This document shows, one piece after another, positions 1 through 48,000 of a stretch of 64,000 nucleotides of DNA. How positions within the stretch are numbered: position 1 is the first letter of the stretch; every line of letters starts with the position of its first letter. Source of the stretch: Mizuhopecten yessoensis (lineage: Eukaryota); the NCBI RefSeq assembly GCF_002113885.1, contig NW_018479853.1, positions 1-64,000 on the forward strand, read 5' to 3'. A program made the position numbers.

Positions 1-3000
1 TTCAGTTATTTTATTTGTACAAACAAGACACATCTTTTTTTAAAAATTAACAATTAGATATAGATGTTGCATGTTATATTATTAGCTTTTTGGTATTGTA
101 CAATGACAGTTGAAATTCATTTGAAAATATTCATAATTTGTTGTTAATTCCACCCTAAAATACGTTAATACTATCTGTCCTAACAACACACACATTTGTT
201 AATTCTACCTGTCCTAACAAGACACAAATATGATAATTCTACCTGTCCTCACAACACACAAATATCATAATTTTACCTGTCCTAACAGGACACATATTTG
301 TTCATTCTACCTGTCCTAACAAGACACAAATAGGATAATTCTACCTGTCCTTACAACACACAAATATCATATTTTTACCTGTCCTAACAAGACACATATT
401 TGTTGATTCTACCTGTCCTAACAAGACACAAATATCATAATTCTACCTGTCCTAACAACACAAATATGTTAATTCTACCTGTCCTAACAAGACACATATT
501 TGTTGATTCTACCTGTCCTAACAAGACACAAATATCATAATTCTACCTGTCCTAACAACACACATGTTTGTTAATTCTACCTGTCCTAACAAGACACAAA
601 TATGTTAATTCTACCTGTTCTAACAACTTAAATATTTGTTAATTCTACCTGTCCTAACAACACACAAATATCATAATTCTACCTGTCCTAACAACACACA
701 AATATGTTAATTCTACCTGTCCTAAACATTCCGTTTTTCTTATGATGAATTCTGCAATTGTCTGCAAACTAAGGCAGGTGTGAAGATGTGATGGCTTCTA
801 CAGTTTAATTATATCTCGTGGTGTTGCTCCACGTATTTCTGGTACAGCACTGAGTGATAGTTAAACAATTGTATCTTTTGCAAATGATTTGGTATCATTT
901 CATTCTCATAGTTTGGAAAAATTCATGTGTTTATAATATGTGTGTATATGCTGTCAACCATCTTTAGGTTATATGGCCCGTATGGGCAGAGGGGAAATAG
1001 AGGAAAAAATATAAAATGTTGTACAAATTAAAGGATATAAACCAAATTTGTTCTAGAGCATCTTTTAATTTGGACAAAGGGGACTCAAGTTTGCATAAAG
1101 ATAGGGTGTTGATGGTTTTTTTTTTATATACTTTTGACAAACAATTGGCAATATGAATTTCAACAAATCTTTCATAAGTGCCCTATAGTAATCACAGTGT
1201 CTGTCTGTATGTCTGCCTGTCCGTCAGCAATTTTGTTTCCGGAGATTATCTCGGGACTCCAAAAGGCCGAACTTAAACTTCACGTAGTGATACAGTGTGA
1301 TACATATAGATGTGCAAAGAACCAGGAGTTTCACAATTTAATCAGGTCAAAGTCAAGGTCGCTGTTTCTAAAAAATGAACAGTTGGACTATACTGTCAAA
1401 AACACATTATATGACCCTCAAAAGGCCAGATTTTGGAGAACGTTTTGTATGACATAATGAAGCAAAGTTGGTCATAATCAAACAAGAAGTCTACTTACCA
1501 AAGGTCAAGGTCATCGGGTCAAAGGTTAATTATAACATGTTTGTCTTAACTTGTGAACATTTTGTTATAACATTATGAAGCAAATTTGGTAATAATTAAT
1601 TCGGGGTCTGCGTATGCAATTAGTAATCATGATGTCTATCTATCCTCTGTCCGTCTGTCCTTCCGTTTGTCTGTTATCACAGAATTACATTCCAAGATGT
1701 CTGTCACATAATTACCTTCCAAGATGTCTATCATATAATTACCTGCCAAGATGTCAGTCACAGAATTACCTGCTAAGATGTCAGTCACAGAATTACCTGC
1801 CAAGATGTCAGTCACAAAATTACCTGCCAGCAAGGATGTCAGTTACAGAATTACCTGCCAGCCAAGATGTCAGTCACATAATTACCTACCAAGATGTCAG
1901 TACTGAATTACCTGCCTGCCAAGATGTTAGTCACATAACTACCTGCCAGCCAAGATGTCTGTCACAGAATTACCTGCCAAGATGTCAGTCACAGAATTAC
2001 CTGCCAAGATGTCAGTCACAGAATTACAGGCCAAGATTTCAGTCACAGAATTACCTGCCAGCCAAGATGTCAGTCACAGAAATACCTGCCAAGATATCAC
2101 TCACAGAATTACCTGCCAAGATGTCAGTCACAGAATTACCTGCCAAGATGAAAAATTGAAGTTCAATGGGTTGGAAGCTGTTCCAAACGCGGTGTTGAAT
2201 GTGACGGTGTCGGTGTCATTGAAAACGTAGGATTCTTCTCTGACCAAGGAACACTGACTACAAAGAAATAAAGAGTGTGATATTAACTTAGGTACAATAT
2301 TTCTATTAATAAAATACAACGTCATGCAATATAGCTGTTACAAAAAAAATAGTTTTCTATTTTTAACCTGATATCGTGAAAATCTTACTTTTCCGTTTAG
2401 ATACATTTTATTGTATAGAATATATTTTGATATACAGTTCATGTTATAAAGAAAATTAATAAGATATCCGATATTAAGATATTACATATCTGTCATGAGA
2501 TATCGTTCATATTACACATGTATATGGAATATCTAATAAAGTGTATGTCTCATTATCATATTATATATGATATAGAAAATAGCTGATGTAATAAAGGAGA
2601 TATAATCAGCATTAACATTGCTCCTTGCAATTTGGGTAAATTTGACATGCAACGGTGTCGTTGACATCAAATGGAAATGTTCCTGAAATGTTTGTGTCTA
2701 CCTGGATGCCGGCTGCTGGTTCAGACAGATGAGAAATTGTGGGTCGCACTGGTTTCTACGACAGTTTGTCATAAGGAAGTGATCACAGCACTGTCCAGAG
2801 GCAAGCTGCTGAGTGGGGTTGTCATAAGCCAGAAGTCTCAATACCCCCGTCCCTCCTGGACAGACAGCCTGCGGATATCAGATACTTATAATTAAATACA
2901 TTTTATATACATTGAAAGGACGTTTGAAATAAAATATCATTTGTCGATATTAACGGTGTTACAAACTGTTGGTGGAAACAGTTGATATGCGCCCCTTTAA

Positions 3001-45000: not shown

Positions 45001-48000
45001 AAGTAAGTCCTAAATTCTGAAGGGGGTTCCCACATGGGTCACCTCTTACGGTTACGATACATGCGGTGGGTAACAGTAGGCTATTCTTTTCTCAATCCCC
45101 GACCTGCAGGTGTGTAGAGTTTGGTACCAAACAGTCATTATTAAATGTGCTTACACACAGAAACAATTAATAATAACCAAACGTATAGTAAAATGATTCC
45201 AAAAAATCTATAATGAGCTTACATACAGATGAGATGCACCAATAAACCATTACAAGGCAAACATACAATAGATAGTCACCAATTAACCCTAACAAGGCAA
45301 ACATACAATAGAGACTCACCATCAACCATTACAAGGCAAACATACAATAGATAGTCACCAATTAACCATTACAAGGCAAACATACAATAGAGAGTCACCA
45401 ATTAACTATTACAAGGCAAACATACAATAGATAGTCACCAATTAACTATTACAAGGTAAACATACAATAGATGGTCACCAATTAACCATTACAACGTAAA
45501 CATACAATAGATAGTCACCAATTAACTATTACAAGGCAAACATACAATAGATAGTCACCAATTAATCATTACAAGGCAAACATACAAATATAGAGTCACC
45601 AATTAACCATTACAAGGCAAACATACAATAGATAGTCACCAATTAACCATTACAAGGCAAACATACAAATATAGAGAGTCACCAATTAACCATAACAAGG
45701 CAAACATACAATAGATAGTCACCAATTAACCATTACAAGGCAAACATACAAATATAGAGTCACCAATTAACTATTACAAGGTAAACATACAATAGAGAGT
45801 CACCAATTAACCATTACAAGGCAAACATACAAATATAGATAGTCACCAATCTACCATTACAATGCAAACATACAAATAGAGAGTCACCATCAATCATTAC
45901 AAGGCAAACATACAATAGATAGTCACCAATTAACTATTACAAGGTAACCTTACAATAGAGAGTCACCAATTAACCCTAGCAAGGCAAACATACAATAGAT
46001 AGTCACCAATTAACCCTTACAAGGCAAACATACAATAGAGACTCACCATCAACCATTACGAGGCATACATACAGATGAGATGCACCAATAAACCATTACA
46101 AGGCAAACATACAATAGATAGTCGCCAATTAACCATTACAAGGCAAACATACAATAGAGAGTCACCAATTAACCCTAGCAAGGCAAACATACAATAGATA
46201 GTCACCAATTAACCATTACAAGGCAAACATACAATAGATAGTCACCAATCAACTATTACAAGGTAAACATACAATAGATAGTCACCAATTAACCATTACA
46301 ATGCAAACATCCAATAGAGAGTCACCAATTAACCCTAGCAAGGCAAACATACAATAGATAGTCACCAATGTACCATTACAAGGCAAACATACAATAGAGA
46401 CTCACCATCAACCATTACGAGGCAAACATACAAATATAGAGTCATCAATTAATGTTACACCAAACATACAAATAAGTCACCATTTTTCTAGACATTTTCT
46501 TCAAGTTGGTAAGTATGGATTATGAAAAGTTCCTTTTCACACAACCAATAAGATTTTCTGTGACGTTTCGATGACTAATACGATATGTACTCTGTCATCT
46601 TCATCAGACAAATTACCGGTGAAGACAAATTGATGTCGATTCGACTACGCTGGTAGTGTATGTACAATAGTTGTTATATATGTTCCAAAATGACTCGATT
46701 AAGCTAAACTCTCATAGGCTCTCGCACATCTATCACCAAGTATTAAACAAAGGGCAGCTAAATCGAGTCATTTCGGAACATATATAACAACTATTGTACA
46801 TACGCTACCAGCGTAGTCGAATCGACATCAATTTGTCTTCACTGGTAATTTGTCTGATGAAGGTGACAAGGTACATATCGTACTAGTCATCCAAACGTCA
46901 CATAGAAAATTGTATTGGTTGTAAAAAAGAACTTTTCATAATAAATAAGTCACCAATTGATCATTACAAGACAAACATACAAAGAGAGGTTTCGATTTAT
47001 CGACAAACAAGTAGAAATAATTATTAATCACAGAAAAATTACTCAGGTTTTCACTTACCTTGCTGATTCCGTATATTAAGTGAAAGATAAAGCACCAACC
47101 CATCTCAACAGCTCTTACGTTAGATAAGACGAACACAGGAACACATTTATAGTTAGCGTATGTCAACGATTCCAAGGGCAGTGCTCAGAGCTACAAATGT
47201 AAAACTGTTTCTGATAAAGGAACGATCTGCCATGTGTGACGTCGAATTGGGTTATACAAAGTGGGGTTCCCCAGCTTGTTCTATGAAGGTAAGAGATAAG
47301 AAATAATACATGTATATCTGTAGTCATCGCTTACCACTTGTGGAGTCACAATGCATAGTACTATACATACCACAAAGTAAACAACACTTTGATCCAGTAA
47401 GCATACTAAATAATAGCCACCTCCAACCATACGTACTATATCAGGAATGCTAAGAGGTCTACCTTTAATAGAACATACATGTATGTCTCTGATAAAACAT
47501 ACATGTATGTCTCTGATAAAACATACATGTATGTCTCTGATAAAACATACATGTTTCTCTTTAATAGTGCATAAATGTATGTCTTTAATAAAACATGCAG
47601 ATGCAGATTAACTTTAAAAGAATGTACGGTGATATCTTAAGTAGAACATACAGAGTGGCGTTCTACAGCAAGAAATTTCGGGAGTGTTTTGTTCTTTTGC
47701 CAACAAAATACAACGCTCGCCAAAAACGTTCGCGAAGACATTTAAACGTTAACTCACTAGAACACCAGACATGCAAGAGGGTGGGGTAATATTGGTTTTG
47801 AGTATTTAATCACCCTTGTCTTAAAACGATCATATTTGGACAAAGAAAACGAACAAAATATACGGAAAATATGAAAAAGGAAGGTCTTTTTCTGAAGAAA
47901 TATTTCTACGGTTGTTCTTTTGTCCTTCTTAATATTTTCGGAATTTTTGTTTTTACATATTTGTGTCCGTTATACAGATCCTTCGCATACAAAACACTCG

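What the first reader, a model, noticed from the sequence alone, without database searches (positions are those of the whole stretch)
2140..47430. Cluster of three divergent, minimal Notch-ligand-like paralogues
Seen: genes A, B and C lie on the same strand and share exon phases and MNNL motifs; B and C have DSL plus a single EGF. Established: canonical Delta ligands have about 6-9 EGF repeats and Serrate/Jagged more. The paralogues are highly diverged, which points to an old lineage-specific expansion that may act as Notch modulators or decoys, or in non-Notch recognition (inference).
Basis: partly seen in the sequence, partly recalled or inferred. Interest (0 to 1): 0.68.

Follow-up and report, generated by a model that had tools for sequence, protein, structure and literature searches.

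The report
Scallop one-EGF Delta-like gene cluster
Three neighbouring scallop genes encode stripped-down relatives of the Delta/Jagged ligands of Notch, each with a single EGF repeat; one is already in public databases under a misleading name, and what they do has never been tested.

Summary
The window is Mizuhopecten yessoensis (Yesso scallop) DNA. On the minus strand lie three paralogous DSL-family genes with identical intron phases. Gene B (22381-28579, 11 exons) is complete and equals the database protein 'Protein jagged-1a' (584 aa). It has a C2/MNNL domain, a DSL domain, one EGF, a 141-residue stalk that is 48% Ser/Thr, a transmembrane helix and a 68-residue tail. Gene C (30391-47103, 7 exons, 237 codons) encodes a secreted protein with DSL and one EGF; its N-terminal domain no longer scores as MNNL. 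Gene A shows only its first three exons (2140-3214); the rest lies off the window, but its orthologues in three other scallops also have one EGF.

No EGF exons were missed. None of the proteins carries the DOS motif of canonical ligands, and the Notch-contacting face of the DSL domain is partly eroded. Trees place B and C as sisters, outside the canonical Delta/Jagged clade. Orthologues in other pectinids date the duplications before those genera split.

Reduced 'Delta-like' proteins are already reported in lophotrochozoans, so this is a variant of a known kind. Function is inferred as DOS-less Notch ligand or modulator and is untested. Structure and complex predictions could not be run.

The parts
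3167..3214 (-). Gene A exon 1: start codon plus signal-peptide-like 16 codons, phase 0 out
   Evidence: Read from the sequence. tblastn of the Pecten orthologue P0003 residues 1-17 gives 59% identity.
2702..2868 (-). Gene A exon 2: first part of MNNL/C2, phase 0 in and 2 out
   Evidence: Pfam MNNL 30.5 bits. 76% identical to P0003. AG/GT ends.
2140..2257 (-). Gene A exon 3: second part of MNNL/C2, phase 2 in and 0 out. This is the last A exon in the window.
   Evidence: tblastn of P0003 gives 66% and P0004 70% identity. 30% identical to B exon 3, E 1e-3.
28526..28579 (-). Gene B exon 1 (my addition): 18 codons, signal-peptide-like. It is absent from the database protein.
   Evidence: ATG, hydrophobic stretch and AG|GTAATA donor in phase with exon 2. 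The Argopecten orthologue has a hydrophobic leader at this place. Inference only.
28153..28316 (-). Gene B exon 2: MNNL/C2 part 1
   Evidence: Pfam MNNL 30.3 bits. 100% identical to P0001.
27582..27696 (-). Gene B exon 3: MNNL/C2 part 2
   Evidence: P0001 residues 55-94 map here. AG/GT ends.
26939..27102 (-). Gene B exon 4: MNNL/C2 part 3
   Evidence: P0001 residues 93-158 map here. In P0001 the MNNL profile covers residues 4-153.
26260..26381 (-). Gene B exon 5: DSL, first five cysteines, 122 nt, phase 2 in and 1 out
   Evidence: Pfam DSL 29.7 bits on the ORF and 41.5 bits in P0001.
25581..25706 (-). Gene B exon 6: end of DSL plus the single EGF, 126 nt, phase 1 in and 1 out
   Evidence: Pfam EGF 30.2 bits. 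P0001 residues 188-231 map here.
24325..24801 (-). Gene B exon 7: last EGF cysteine plus the Ser/Thr-rich stalk
   Evidence: P0001 residues 225-397 map here. The stalk, residues 236-376, is 48% S+T.
23832..23961 (-). Gene B exon 8: juxtamembrane domain, part 1
   Evidence: P0001 residues 387-432 map here. 49% identical to the Argopecten orthologue.
23363..23459 (-). Gene B exon 9: juxtamembrane domain, part 2
   Evidence: P0001 residues 433-472 map here. No Pfam family. An Atlas lead to SEA scores 0.83.
22989..23146 (-). Gene B exon 10: acidic/Ser-rich linker plus transmembrane helix
   Evidence: P0001 residues 458-517 map here. Hydrophobic window at residue 491.
22381..22585 (-). Gene B exon 11: 68-residue cytoplasmic tail and stop codon. 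Its 3' end runs into a 39/51-bp tandem repeat.
   Evidence: P0001 residues 517-584 match at 100%. The tail has 6 Lys. TRF arrays 22152-22471.
47059..47103 (-). Gene C exon 1: start codon plus 15-codon signal-peptide-like leader
   Evidence: tblastn of P0124 residues 1-16 gives 56% identity. Donor GTAAGT.
43861..43991 (-). Gene C exon 2: degenerate N-terminal domain, 131 nt, with 1 cysteine where A and B have 5
   Evidence: tblastn of P0124 residues 15-61 gives 47%, E 2.6e-8. Against A e2, E 6e-4. No Pfam hit. The donor GTTAGT is weak.
42774..42849 (-). Gene C exon 3: 76 nt, 12 codons shorter than in the orthologue P0124
   Evidence: tblastn of P0124 residues 58-103, E 0.008. AG/GT ends. A second in-phase donor lies 33 nt downstream, so the 3' end is uncertain.
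41375..41523 (-). Gene C exon 4: weakest exon of the model
   Evidence: Right order, strand and phases with AG/GTAAGG ends. The similarity to P0124 is not significant (E 16).
36516..36637 (-). Gene C exon 5: DSL, 122 nt, phase 2 in and 1 out
   Evidence: Pfam DSL 21.6-22.3 bits. 73% identical to P0124 and 51% to B.
34431..34556 (-). Gene C exon 6: end of DSL plus the single EGF, 126 nt, phase 1 in and 1 out
   Evidence: Pfam EGF 22.7-24.6 bits. 69% identical to P0124.
30391..30455 (-). Gene C exon 7: last EGF cysteine, 17 further residues and the stop codon. There is no transmembrane segment.
   Evidence: tblastn of P0124 residues 224-233 matches 9 of 10. Sequence read. The orthologue P0124 ends at the same place.
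32223..34481 (-). 62-bp minisatellite, 36 copies, in C intron 6. Each unit copies the last 42 nt of exon 6 plus the donor site.
   Evidence: TRF. 33 copies of the donor decamer. tblastn of the EGF exon hits every unit.
30442..32227 (-). 84-bp minisatellite, 21 copies, in C intron 6. Each unit copies the acceptor and the first codons of exon 7.
   Evidence: TRF. 16 acceptor copies. Sequence read.
1677..2150 (-). 27-bp minisatellite that starts in the last bases of A exon 3 and repeats its donor site
   Evidence: TRF. 12 donor copies.

Best explanation

Each protein keeps only the receptor-facing head of a Notch ligand: an N-terminal C2/MNNL domain, a DSL domain and one ordinary EGF repeat. The two atypical EGFs (the DOS motif) and the EGF rod of canonical ligands are missing.
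- In A and B the rod is replaced by a Ser/Thr-rich, presumably O-glycosylated stalk, followed by a transmembrane helix and a short lysine-bearing tail.
- C is the sister of B. It has lost the stalk and the anchor and is secreted, and its C2 domain has lost 4 of its 6 cysteines.

Shown here: gene structures, domains, paralogy, orthologues in other scallops, absence of DOS, and an eroded DSL contact face.

Inferred: the proteins act on Notch as DOS-less ligands, as the C. elegans DSL proteins do. They are more likely weak or modulatory than strong activators. A and B could act by cis-inhibition or by competition with Delta and Jagged. C could act as a diffusible agonist or antagonist.
For: Identity and structure
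- B exon 2 is 100% identical to the 584-aa NCBI protein 'Protein jagged-1a [M. yessoensis]'.
- All ten coding exons of that protein lie at my coordinates.
- Pfam on that protein gives MNNL 4-153, DSL 156-196 and one EGF 201-231, and nothing else.
- The exon models sum to 1812 nt for B and 714 nt for C, both in frame.

A family rather than an artefact
- The A orthologues in Pecten, Ylistrum and Argopecten are 423-428 aa. Each has MNNL, a weak DSL, one EGF, a stalk and a transmembrane helix.
- The B orthologue in Argopecten has the same plan.
- The C orthologue P0124 is 234 aa, has no transmembrane helix, and ends at the same residues as my exon 7.
- The Argopecten A and B orthologues are both listed on a contig of 51,162,219 bp.

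Tree (57 rows)
- B plus C-type has support 97/74.
- A group of six single-EGF rows forms.
- The canonical clade (15 rows, 100/98) holds no single-EGF row.
- The one-EGF label needs 5 changes against 11.0 in shuffles; 0 of 500 shuffles were as low.
- Holding A+B+C together is not rejected (p-AU 0.93). Holding all 12 single-EGF rows together is not rejected either (0.77).

Ligand-like features kept
- Six DSL and six EGF cysteines are invariant in the 11-sequence alignment.
- The Asp residues that align with the Jagged1 Ca2+ ligands D72 and D140 are kept in B (residues from PMC3888931, passages).
- An O-fucose consensus C2-X4-T-C3 is present in the EGF of B and of C (sequence; consensus from PMC7922208, figure legend).
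- B's tail has 6 Lys.

Precedent
- C. elegans DSL ligands lack DOS and still signal. DSL-1 is secreted and has one EGF (PMC2504490, PMC3415683; passages).
- DLL4 lacks DOS (PMC6986876, abstract).
Against: DSL contact face
- In Jagged1 the residues are F199, R201, R203, D205 and F207, and F207A abolishes Notch binding (PMC3415683, PMC3888931; passages).
- In B only R201 is kept. F199 is Ser, the R203-D205 stretch is deleted, and F207 is Leu.
- The A orthologues keep none unchanged: S, T, K, N, Y.
- C keeps R201 and has conservative Y, K and Y, but lacks D205. The placement of the gap is ambiguous.

Other points
- Jagged1 NT-DSL without EGF1-2 binds Notch poorly (cited in PMC2171428, passage).
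- DLL3, which has a divergent DSL, does not bind Notch in trans (PMC2171428, passages).
- C lacks the disulphide-braced region of the C2 domain that forms Notch site 1 (PMC5538765, passage).
- 0 of 6 C-termini end in the ATEV motif of ancestral Delta (motif from PMC5356439, passage).
- No expression, binding or structural evidence was obtained.
- Taxa outside Pectinidae are unknown, because the representatives carry no names.
Confidence: 0.5

Rival explanations
1. The proteins no longer deal with Notch. A and B would be mucin-like cell-surface proteins whose C2-DSL-EGF head binds membranes or some other receptor, for adhesion, self/non-self recognition or immune recognition. C would be a secreted version of that head.
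For: - The DSL contact face is eroded.
- DOS is absent in 0 of 12 single-EGF proteins, against 9 of 57 DSL proteins overall.
- Between the B orthologues the C2 exons are the best conserved part (81, 72 and 63% identity), ahead of the DSL and EGF exons (59 and 57%).
- The Ca2+-ligand aspartates are kept.
- The stalk is 48% Ser/Thr.
- There is a weak Atlas lead to SEA domains for the juxtamembrane part (0.83).
Against: - The DSL fold, its six cysteines and the YYG motif are kept under selection in all three lineages.
- In C the DSL and EGF exons are the best conserved part (73 and 69% against 35-47% for the N-terminal exons).
- No DSL protein with a non-Notch receptor came up in the papers read.
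Confidence: 0.3
2. Some of the genes are decaying or not expressed, above all C in this genome. The models would then be conceptual only.
For: - C exon 2 has a weak GTTAGT donor.
- C exon 3 is 12 codons shorter than in the orthologue.
- C exon 4 has no significant similarity (E 16).
- C intron 6 holds 33 decoy donors and 16 decoy acceptors.
- A protein for A or C of M. yessoensis did not turn up in the searches made.
- C-type is a very long branch (2.35).
Against: - All 7 C exons are open, in phase and bounded by AG/GT, and they sum to 714 nt with a stop codon at the place where the orthologue ends.
- All 12 DSL and EGF cysteines are kept.
- B is intact and annotated.
Confidence: 0.1
3. They are ordinary Delta or Jagged orthologues whose further EGF exons were overlooked.
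For: NCBI names the proteins 'Protein jagged-1a', 'delta-like protein 4' and 'protein jagged-1-like'.
Against: - tblastn with both EGF exons finds no further EGF exon in the window apart from the partial satellite copies.
- The next exon of B goes straight from the last EGF cysteine into the stalk.
- 5 of 5 named scallop proteins have one EGF by Pfam.
- No single-EGF row lies in the canonical clade.
Confidence: 0.02

Closest known systems
C. elegans DSL ligands (LAG-2, APX-1; secreted DSL-1)
   Same: - A DSL domain followed by very few ordinary EGFs; DSL-1 has one.
- No DOS motif.
- Both membrane-bound and secreted members in one genome (PMC3415683, PMC2504490; passages).
- Gene C matches the DSL-1 plan, and A and B match the LAG-2 plan.
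   Different: - The origin is independent; no nematode relationship was tested here.
- A and B keep a C2/MNNL domain that passes the Pfam cut-off and carry a long mucin-like stalk.
- Whether scallops have DOS-only co-ligands like OSM-11 was not examined.
Lophotrochozoan 'Delta-like' proteins (Platynereis Dl-like1-3, Lottia; DSL expansion in bivalves)
   Same: - Lineage-specific DSL proteins with SP, MNNL, DSL, TM and fewer than seven EGFs, without the ATEV end and of uncertain origin (PMC5356439, passages).
- 138 DSL-family genes were screened in lophotrochozoans, with expansion in bivalves (PMC8166818, passages).
   Different: - The main texts read do not describe a one-EGF form, a Ser/Thr stalk or a secreted DSL plus one-EGF form. 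'single EGF' and 'one EGF' occur 0 times in PMC8166818.
- Its supplementary tree and tables, which I could not open, may list these genes.
Vertebrate DLL3
   Same: A divergent DSL ligand with a degenerate DSL face and no DOS. It does not activate Notch in trans but inhibits in cis (PMC2171428, passages; PMC2504490, passage).
   Different: DLL3 keeps six or seven EGFs (six in PMC2171428, seven in PMC5538765; passages) and has no mucin stalk. No orthology.
Canonical Delta/Jagged (DLL1, JAG1, Drosophila Delta and Serrate)
   Same: - The same head: P0001 aligns over residues 7-236 with Jagged-1 (4cbz, E 2.2e-16) and over 24-236 with DLL1 (4xbm, whole-protein E 2.4e-33).
- The intron phases are shared among A, B and C. 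Canonical genes were not compared.
   Different: - 5-9 EGFs in Delta and 16 in Jagged (PMC3415683, passage) against one here.
- The DOS motif is absent here.
- The loop between the third and fourth DSL cysteines is 3 residues shorter in B and C.

Membership tests
DSL (Delta/Serrate/LAG-2) ligand family | DSL domain with six cysteines | tested here: met
   Pfam DSL scores:
- 41.5 bits in P0001, the database protein of B.
- 38.8 bits in P0124, the C orthologue.
- 21.6-22.3 bits for C's exon alone, which is a split domain.
- 22.0-24.2 bits in the A orthologues, at or under the cut-off of 24.2.
All six cysteines are invariant in the alignments of 11 and 40 sequences. A's own DSL exon is not in the window.
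DSL (Delta/Serrate/LAG-2) ligand family | N-terminal C2/MNNL domain | tested here: met
   Met for A (30.5 bits on exon 2) and for B (30.3 bits on exon 2, and 38.8 bits over profile positions 2-156 in P0001). Not met for C: 0 of 3 exons hit and P0124 has no hit. C keeps only 2 of the 6 conserved cysteines.
Canonical Delta / Jagged | Array of EGF repeats: at least 9 for Delta and at least 16 for Jagged by the definition in PMC5356439; 5-9 and 16 in PMC3415683 | tested here: not met
   One EGF in B and in C, and one in each of the 3 A orthologues. No further EGF exon in the window.
Canonical Delta / Jagged | DOS motif in EGF1-2 directly after the DSL domain (consensus from PMC2504490, figure 2 legend) | tested here: not met
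   The regular expression of the published consensus matches 0 of 12 single-EGF proteins, 9 of 57 DSL proteins as positive controls, and nothing in the six frames of the window.
Canonical Delta / Jagged | [quoted passage not shown] | tested here: not met
   - B: 1 of 5 identical (R201), with three residues deleted.
- A orthologues: 0 of 5.
- C: R201 identical and Y, K, Y conservative, with D205 missing.
The placement of the gap is ambiguous.
Canonical Delta / Jagged | Type I membrane protein with an intracellular domain; ATEV PDZ-binding end in ancestral Delta | tested here: inconclusive
   A transmembrane helix and a tail are present in B and in the A orthologues and absent in C. 0 of 6 proteins end in ATEV. 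Motifs for Mind bomb or Neuralized were not examined.
Canonical Delta / Jagged | Binds Notch EGF11-12 and activates in trans | not testable with these tools
No scallop Notch sequence was at hand.
DOS-less DSL ligands of the C. elegans type | DSL plus few ordinary EGFs, no DOS, and secreted as well as membrane-bound members | tested here: met
   Met as an architecture only. Common descent with the nematode genes was not tested.
Membrane mucins with a SEA domain | Ser/Thr-rich stalk followed by a SEA domain next to the membrane | tested here: inconclusive
   The stalk is 48% S+T over 141 residues. For the 75-90 residues next to the membrane there was no Pfam family and no PDB relative (best E 0.74). 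Only an Atlas lead to SEA clusters at 0.83, which is below the 0.9 that counts.

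The most novel reading that the evidence does not exclude
Scallops, and perhaps other molluscs, run a second tier of Notch ligands built on a different chassis. The C2-DSL-EGF head sits on a mucin stalk with a SEA-like, force-sensitive module next to the membrane (B), alongside a diffusible head-only partner (C). Both lack DOS, so signalling would be bipartite as in C. elegans, or would set the threshold for canonical Delta and Jagged. That would be an independent reinvention of the nematode solution, and a natural test of how much of a Notch ligand is needed to pull on the receptor.
Probability: 0.12. Interest if true: 0.6.

Novelty: new variant of a known kind. Interest (0 to 1): 0.35.

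Why it matters
If these proteins do touch Notch, they are natural minimal ligands. They would show how far the ligand can be cut down: no DOS, no EGF rod, and a mucin stalk as spacer. They would also show how secreted and anchored forms divide the work outside nematodes.

On the practical side, automatic names such as 'jagged-1a' and 'delta-like protein 4' mislead Notch-pathway gene counts in molluscs. The database model of B also lacks its signal peptide.

If they do not touch Notch, they show a DSL head re-used for another purpose. Either way the finding is modest. The family is known, one gene is already annotated, and nothing functional is shown.

Tried and rejected
As a result no fold check, no fold search and no test of the SEA lead were possible.

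2. Complex prediction of B residues 1-240 with EGF8-13 of an unnamed invertebrate Notch (P0032). The queue was full 8 times. There was no usable answer twice (87, 91). The cap was then reported as used (95). No result of any kind came back.

Their organisms stay unknown.

4. The last word-index search, run with the 11-sequence alignment, was swamped by low-complexity words of the stalks. It returned only P0001, P0002 and three unrelated EGF proteins.

5. The Atlas search on the head of B gave generic chordate Delta-like clusters and no help on range.

6. Juxtamembrane domain of B: BLAST and phmmer against the 156 stored proteins found only the Argopecten orthologue. The profile against PDB and Pfam found nothing.

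7. I asked whether minisatellites are drawn to exon ends. They cover 38.8% of bases 1-48,500, but only 5 of 42 exon ends lie inside them, so there is no enrichment.

8. P0006, P0007, P0009 and P0013, the top HMMER hits, are multi-EGF proteins of other families and not Notch.

9. Rfam and tRNA scans of the window found 0 and 0.

10. 'Ordinary Delta with missed EGF exons' was rejected (see the rival explanations).

Literature searches for a one-EGF, mucin-stalk DSL ligand in bivalves found none described. This holds only for the open-access library and without supplements.

Full report
**Origin and method**

The window has 37% G+C and one single N at 19535, which I left untouched. Exon 2 of gene B is 100% identical to an NCBI/UniRef protein of Mizuhopecten yessoensis, so the DNA is Yesso scallop and not human.

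Where a whole protein was needed I used proteins that the search tools returned. These were P0001 for gene B and orthologues for A and C.

**The observation**

Pfam on stop-to-stop ORFs of the minus strand found six relevant hits among the 8 ORFs given:
- A: MNNL 30.5 bits (cut-off 22.5).
- B: MNNL 30.3 bits.
- B: DSL 29.7 bits (cut-off 24.2).
- B: EGF 30.2 bits (cut-off 21.5).
- C: DSL 22.3 bits.
- C: EGF 24.6 bits.

The exons match one another within the window:
- A e2 against B e2: 45-46% identity, E about 1e-12.
- DSL exons of B and C: 51%, E 3.4e-10.
- EGF exons of B and C: 53%, E 2.6e-13.
- A e3 against B e3: 30%, E 1e-3.
- C e2 against A e2: a 28-residue match, E 6e-4.

**Gene B**

Reading the DNA gave eleven exons with AG/GT ends. 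The database protein P0001 (584 aa, 'Protein jagged-1a') maps to exons 2-11. It also corrected my donor site for exon 7, which the Argopecten orthologue supports.

P0001 starts at an internal Met and has no signal peptide. An upstream 18-codon exon (28579-28526) with a hydrophobic stretch and a good donor would supply one. The Argopecten protein has a leader at that place. This exon is my inference.

The eleven exons sum to 1812 nt.

Pfam on P0001 gives MNNL 4-153, DSL 156-196 and one EGF 201-231, and no other family above its curated cut-off. After the EGF come:
- a 141-residue stretch that is 48% Ser+Thr,
- about 90 residues that are conserved only with the Argopecten orthologue (47%),
- an acidic linker,
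- a transmembrane helix,
- a 68-residue tail with 6 Lys.

**Gene A**

Exons 1-3 (3214-2140) have phases 0, 2, 0, like B. No M. yessoensis protein was found for it. Orthologues are 'delta-like protein 4' of Pecten maximus (423 aa, 76% identical on exon 2) and of Ylistrum balloti (425 aa), and 'protein jagged-1-like' of Argopecten irradians (428 aa).

All three have MNNL (45-52 bits), a weak DSL (22.0-24.2 bits), one EGF, a stalk that is about 50% Ser/Thr, and a transmembrane helix. Only residues 1-112 of these proteins find a match in the window, so the rest of A lies beyond base 1. P0001's contig is given as 73,966 bp, so the scaffold may end soon after.

**Gene C**

The exhaustive HMMER search with P0001 returned 4432 proteins at E<=1e-3, of which the best 150 were listed. 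Among them was P0124, 234 aa and unnamed. It matches C's DSL exon at 73% and its EGF exon at 69%.

With P0124 as a guide, tblastn found the missing exons:
- e1 47103-47059
- e2 43991-43861
- e3 42849-42774
- e4 41523-41375
- e7 30455-30391

The phases are 0, 2, 0, 2, 1, 1 as in B. The sum is 714 nt with a stop codon.

The weak points are these:
- a GTTAGT donor after e2,
- a 12-codon gap in e3 relative to P0124,
- an alternative in-phase donor 33 nt after e3,
- an e4 whose similarity is not significant (E 16).

The protein has no transmembrane segment and ends 20 residues after the last EGF cysteine, as P0124 does. Its N-terminal domain has lost the stretch with four of the six MNNL cysteines. 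It scores for MNNL in 0 of 3 exons, and P0124 does not score either.

**Were EGF exons missed?**

No. Apart from B e6 and C e6, the only EGF-like matches in the window are the 62-bp satellite units that copy the last 21 codons of C e6.

**Relationships**

BLASTP gives 35% identity over 238 residues between B and the A type, and 37% over 194 residues between B and the C type.

I took the 57 stored proteins whose match to B covers both MNNL and DSL. By a cysteine-spacing pattern, 12 of them have one EGF.

In the careful maximum-likelihood tree (245 columns):
- B and its orthologue join the C type at 97/74.
- P0039 joins next (93/82), then P0062 (89/88), then P0049 (72/73).
- The A orthologues form a 100/98 clade elsewhere in an unresolved backbone.
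- A 100/98 clade of 15 multi-EGF rows holds every protein that carries DOS and no single-EGF row.
- The one-EGF label needs 5 changes against 11.0 in shuffles; 0 of 500 shuffles were as low.

AU tests do not reject A+B+C as one clade (p 0.93) or all 12 single-EGF rows as one clade (p 0.77). Both tests were run against the quick tree. A p above 0.05 does not prove a clade.

B, C, P0002, P0124, P0049, P0039 and P0117 share a loop between the third and fourth DSL cysteines that is three residues shorter and lacks the Gly-His of other ligands.

The Argopecten A and B orthologues are both listed with a contig of 51,162,219 bp, which suggests linkage there too. The organisms of the unnamed representatives could not be learned.

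**How it may work**

*Kept features*
- The DSL and EGF cysteine frameworks.
- The aspartates of B that align with the Jagged1 Ca2+ ligands D72 and D140. In Jagged1, the D140A/D144A change abolishes Ca2+ and liposome binding and lowers activation (PMC3888931, passages).
- An O-fucose consensus in the EGF of B and of C (consensus from PMC7922208, figure legend).

*Lost features*
- The DOS motif.
- Most of the Jagged1 DSL face F199/R201/R203/D205/F207 (residues from PMC3415683, passages).
- In C, the disulphide-braced part of the C2 domain. In DLL4 that part forms the contact with Notch EGF12 (PMC5538765, passage).

*Precedents cut both ways*
- C. elegans ligands lack DOS and still signal, helped by DOS-only co-ligands. 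DSL-1 is secreted with one EGF (PMC2504490, PMC3415683; passages).
- DLL4 lacks DOS (PMC6986876, abstract).
- DLL3, with a degenerate DSL, does not bind Notch in trans and only inhibits in cis. Jagged1 NT-DSL alone binds poorly (PMC2171428, passages).

I therefore favour weak or modulatory action on Notch, at 0.5. A role away from Notch stands at 0.3.

Between orthologues, B conserves its C2 exons best (81, 72 and 63%) and C conserves its DSL and EGF exons best. This hints that the two sisters have specialised.

**What is known already**

'Delta-like' proteins with fewer EGFs, without ATEV and of uncertain origin are described for Platynereis, Lottia and others (PMC5356439, passages). Seven Delta copies were counted in Lottia (PMC2770060, passage). 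An expansion of DSL genes in bivalves, and 138 DSL-family genes in lophotrochozoans, are reported in PMC8166818 (passages).

None of the main texts I read describes a one-EGF, mucin-stalk form or a secreted DSL plus one-EGF form in molluscs. Three searches found none. A 2024 review of invertebrate Notch does not mention them in the passages I read (PMC10970066).

**Verdict**

This is a new variant of a known kind, of modest interest.

The checks that would have mattered most could not be made here. These are folds, a docking test with the scallop's own Notch, expression data, and the taxa of the unnamed relatives.

Noticed in passing
window 30442-34481 (gene C intron 6): Almost the whole 4-kb intron is two minisatellites built from the flanking exon ends: 36 units of 62 bp and 21 units of 84 bp. 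The first carries 33 copies of the exon-6 donor sequence. The second carries 16 copies of the exon-7 acceptor, 13 of them with the first five codons of exon 7. The 84-bp unit is in frame (28 codons). Use of any decoy site would change the product.
   Followed up: partly
window 1-48500: Minisatellites with periods of 17-157 bp cover 38.8% of this stretch. Smaller arrays also start in the last bases of A exon 3 (27 bp x 17) and C exon 5 (78 bp x 2.2), and one lies about 70 bp downstream of the B exon 3 donor (32 bp x 5.5). Each repeats the donor site. Exon ends are not enriched in arrays: 5 of 42 lie inside them.
   Followed up: yes
window 37378-40815 (gene C intron 4): Two arrays of the same 32-bp unit abut head to head at 39827/39828. 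One has 77.5 copies. The other has 30.9 copies whose consensus reads as the reverse complement of the first. Together they form a 3.4-kb inverted pair of satellites.
   Followed up: no
window about 11043-20724, plus strand: A multi-EF-hand gene lies between A and B on the other strand. By eye it is of the reticulocalbin/calumenin kind. It has EF-hand loops at 13223, 15782 and 20485 and a signal-peptide-like ORF at 11043-11360. The Pfam EF-hand hits on single exons are below their cut-offs.
   Followed up: partly
window 16183-19534, and the N at 19535: A 3.35-kb satellite (62-bp unit, 248-bp higher-order unit, 99% matches) with strong G-over-C and A-over-T skew lies inside an intron of the EF-hand gene. 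It ends at the single N.
   Followed up: no
window 28526-28579, minus strand: The public protein model of gene B starts at an internal Met and has no signal peptide. A short upstream exon in phase would supply one.
   Followed up: partly
window 23363-23961, minus strand (B exons 8-9): A stretch of about 75-90 residues next to the membrane is conserved with the Argopecten orthologue (47-48%). It matches no Pfam family and no PDB sequence. The only lead is SEA-domain clusters in the Atlas at 0.83.
   Followed up: partly
window 22152-22471, minus strand: The last 30 or so codons of gene B, and its 3' flank, are 39- and 51-bp tandem repeats. The end of the cytoplasmic tail is therefore repeat-encoded and is absent from the Argopecten orthologue.
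   Followed up: no
window 63138-64000, minus strand: Two long ORFs here look, by eye, like part of a non-LTR retrotransposon reverse transcriptase (a YADD-type motif). Pfam gave no family at E<=0.01.
   Followed up: partly
stored proteins P0027, P0034, P0040, P0099, P0102, P0108, P0114 and others: Many multi-EGF DSL proteins among the unnamed representatives also go straight from DSL into ordinary EGFs without the DOS pair. Only 9 of 57 match the DOS pattern, so DOS-less ligands may be common outside vertebrates and insects.
   Followed up: partly
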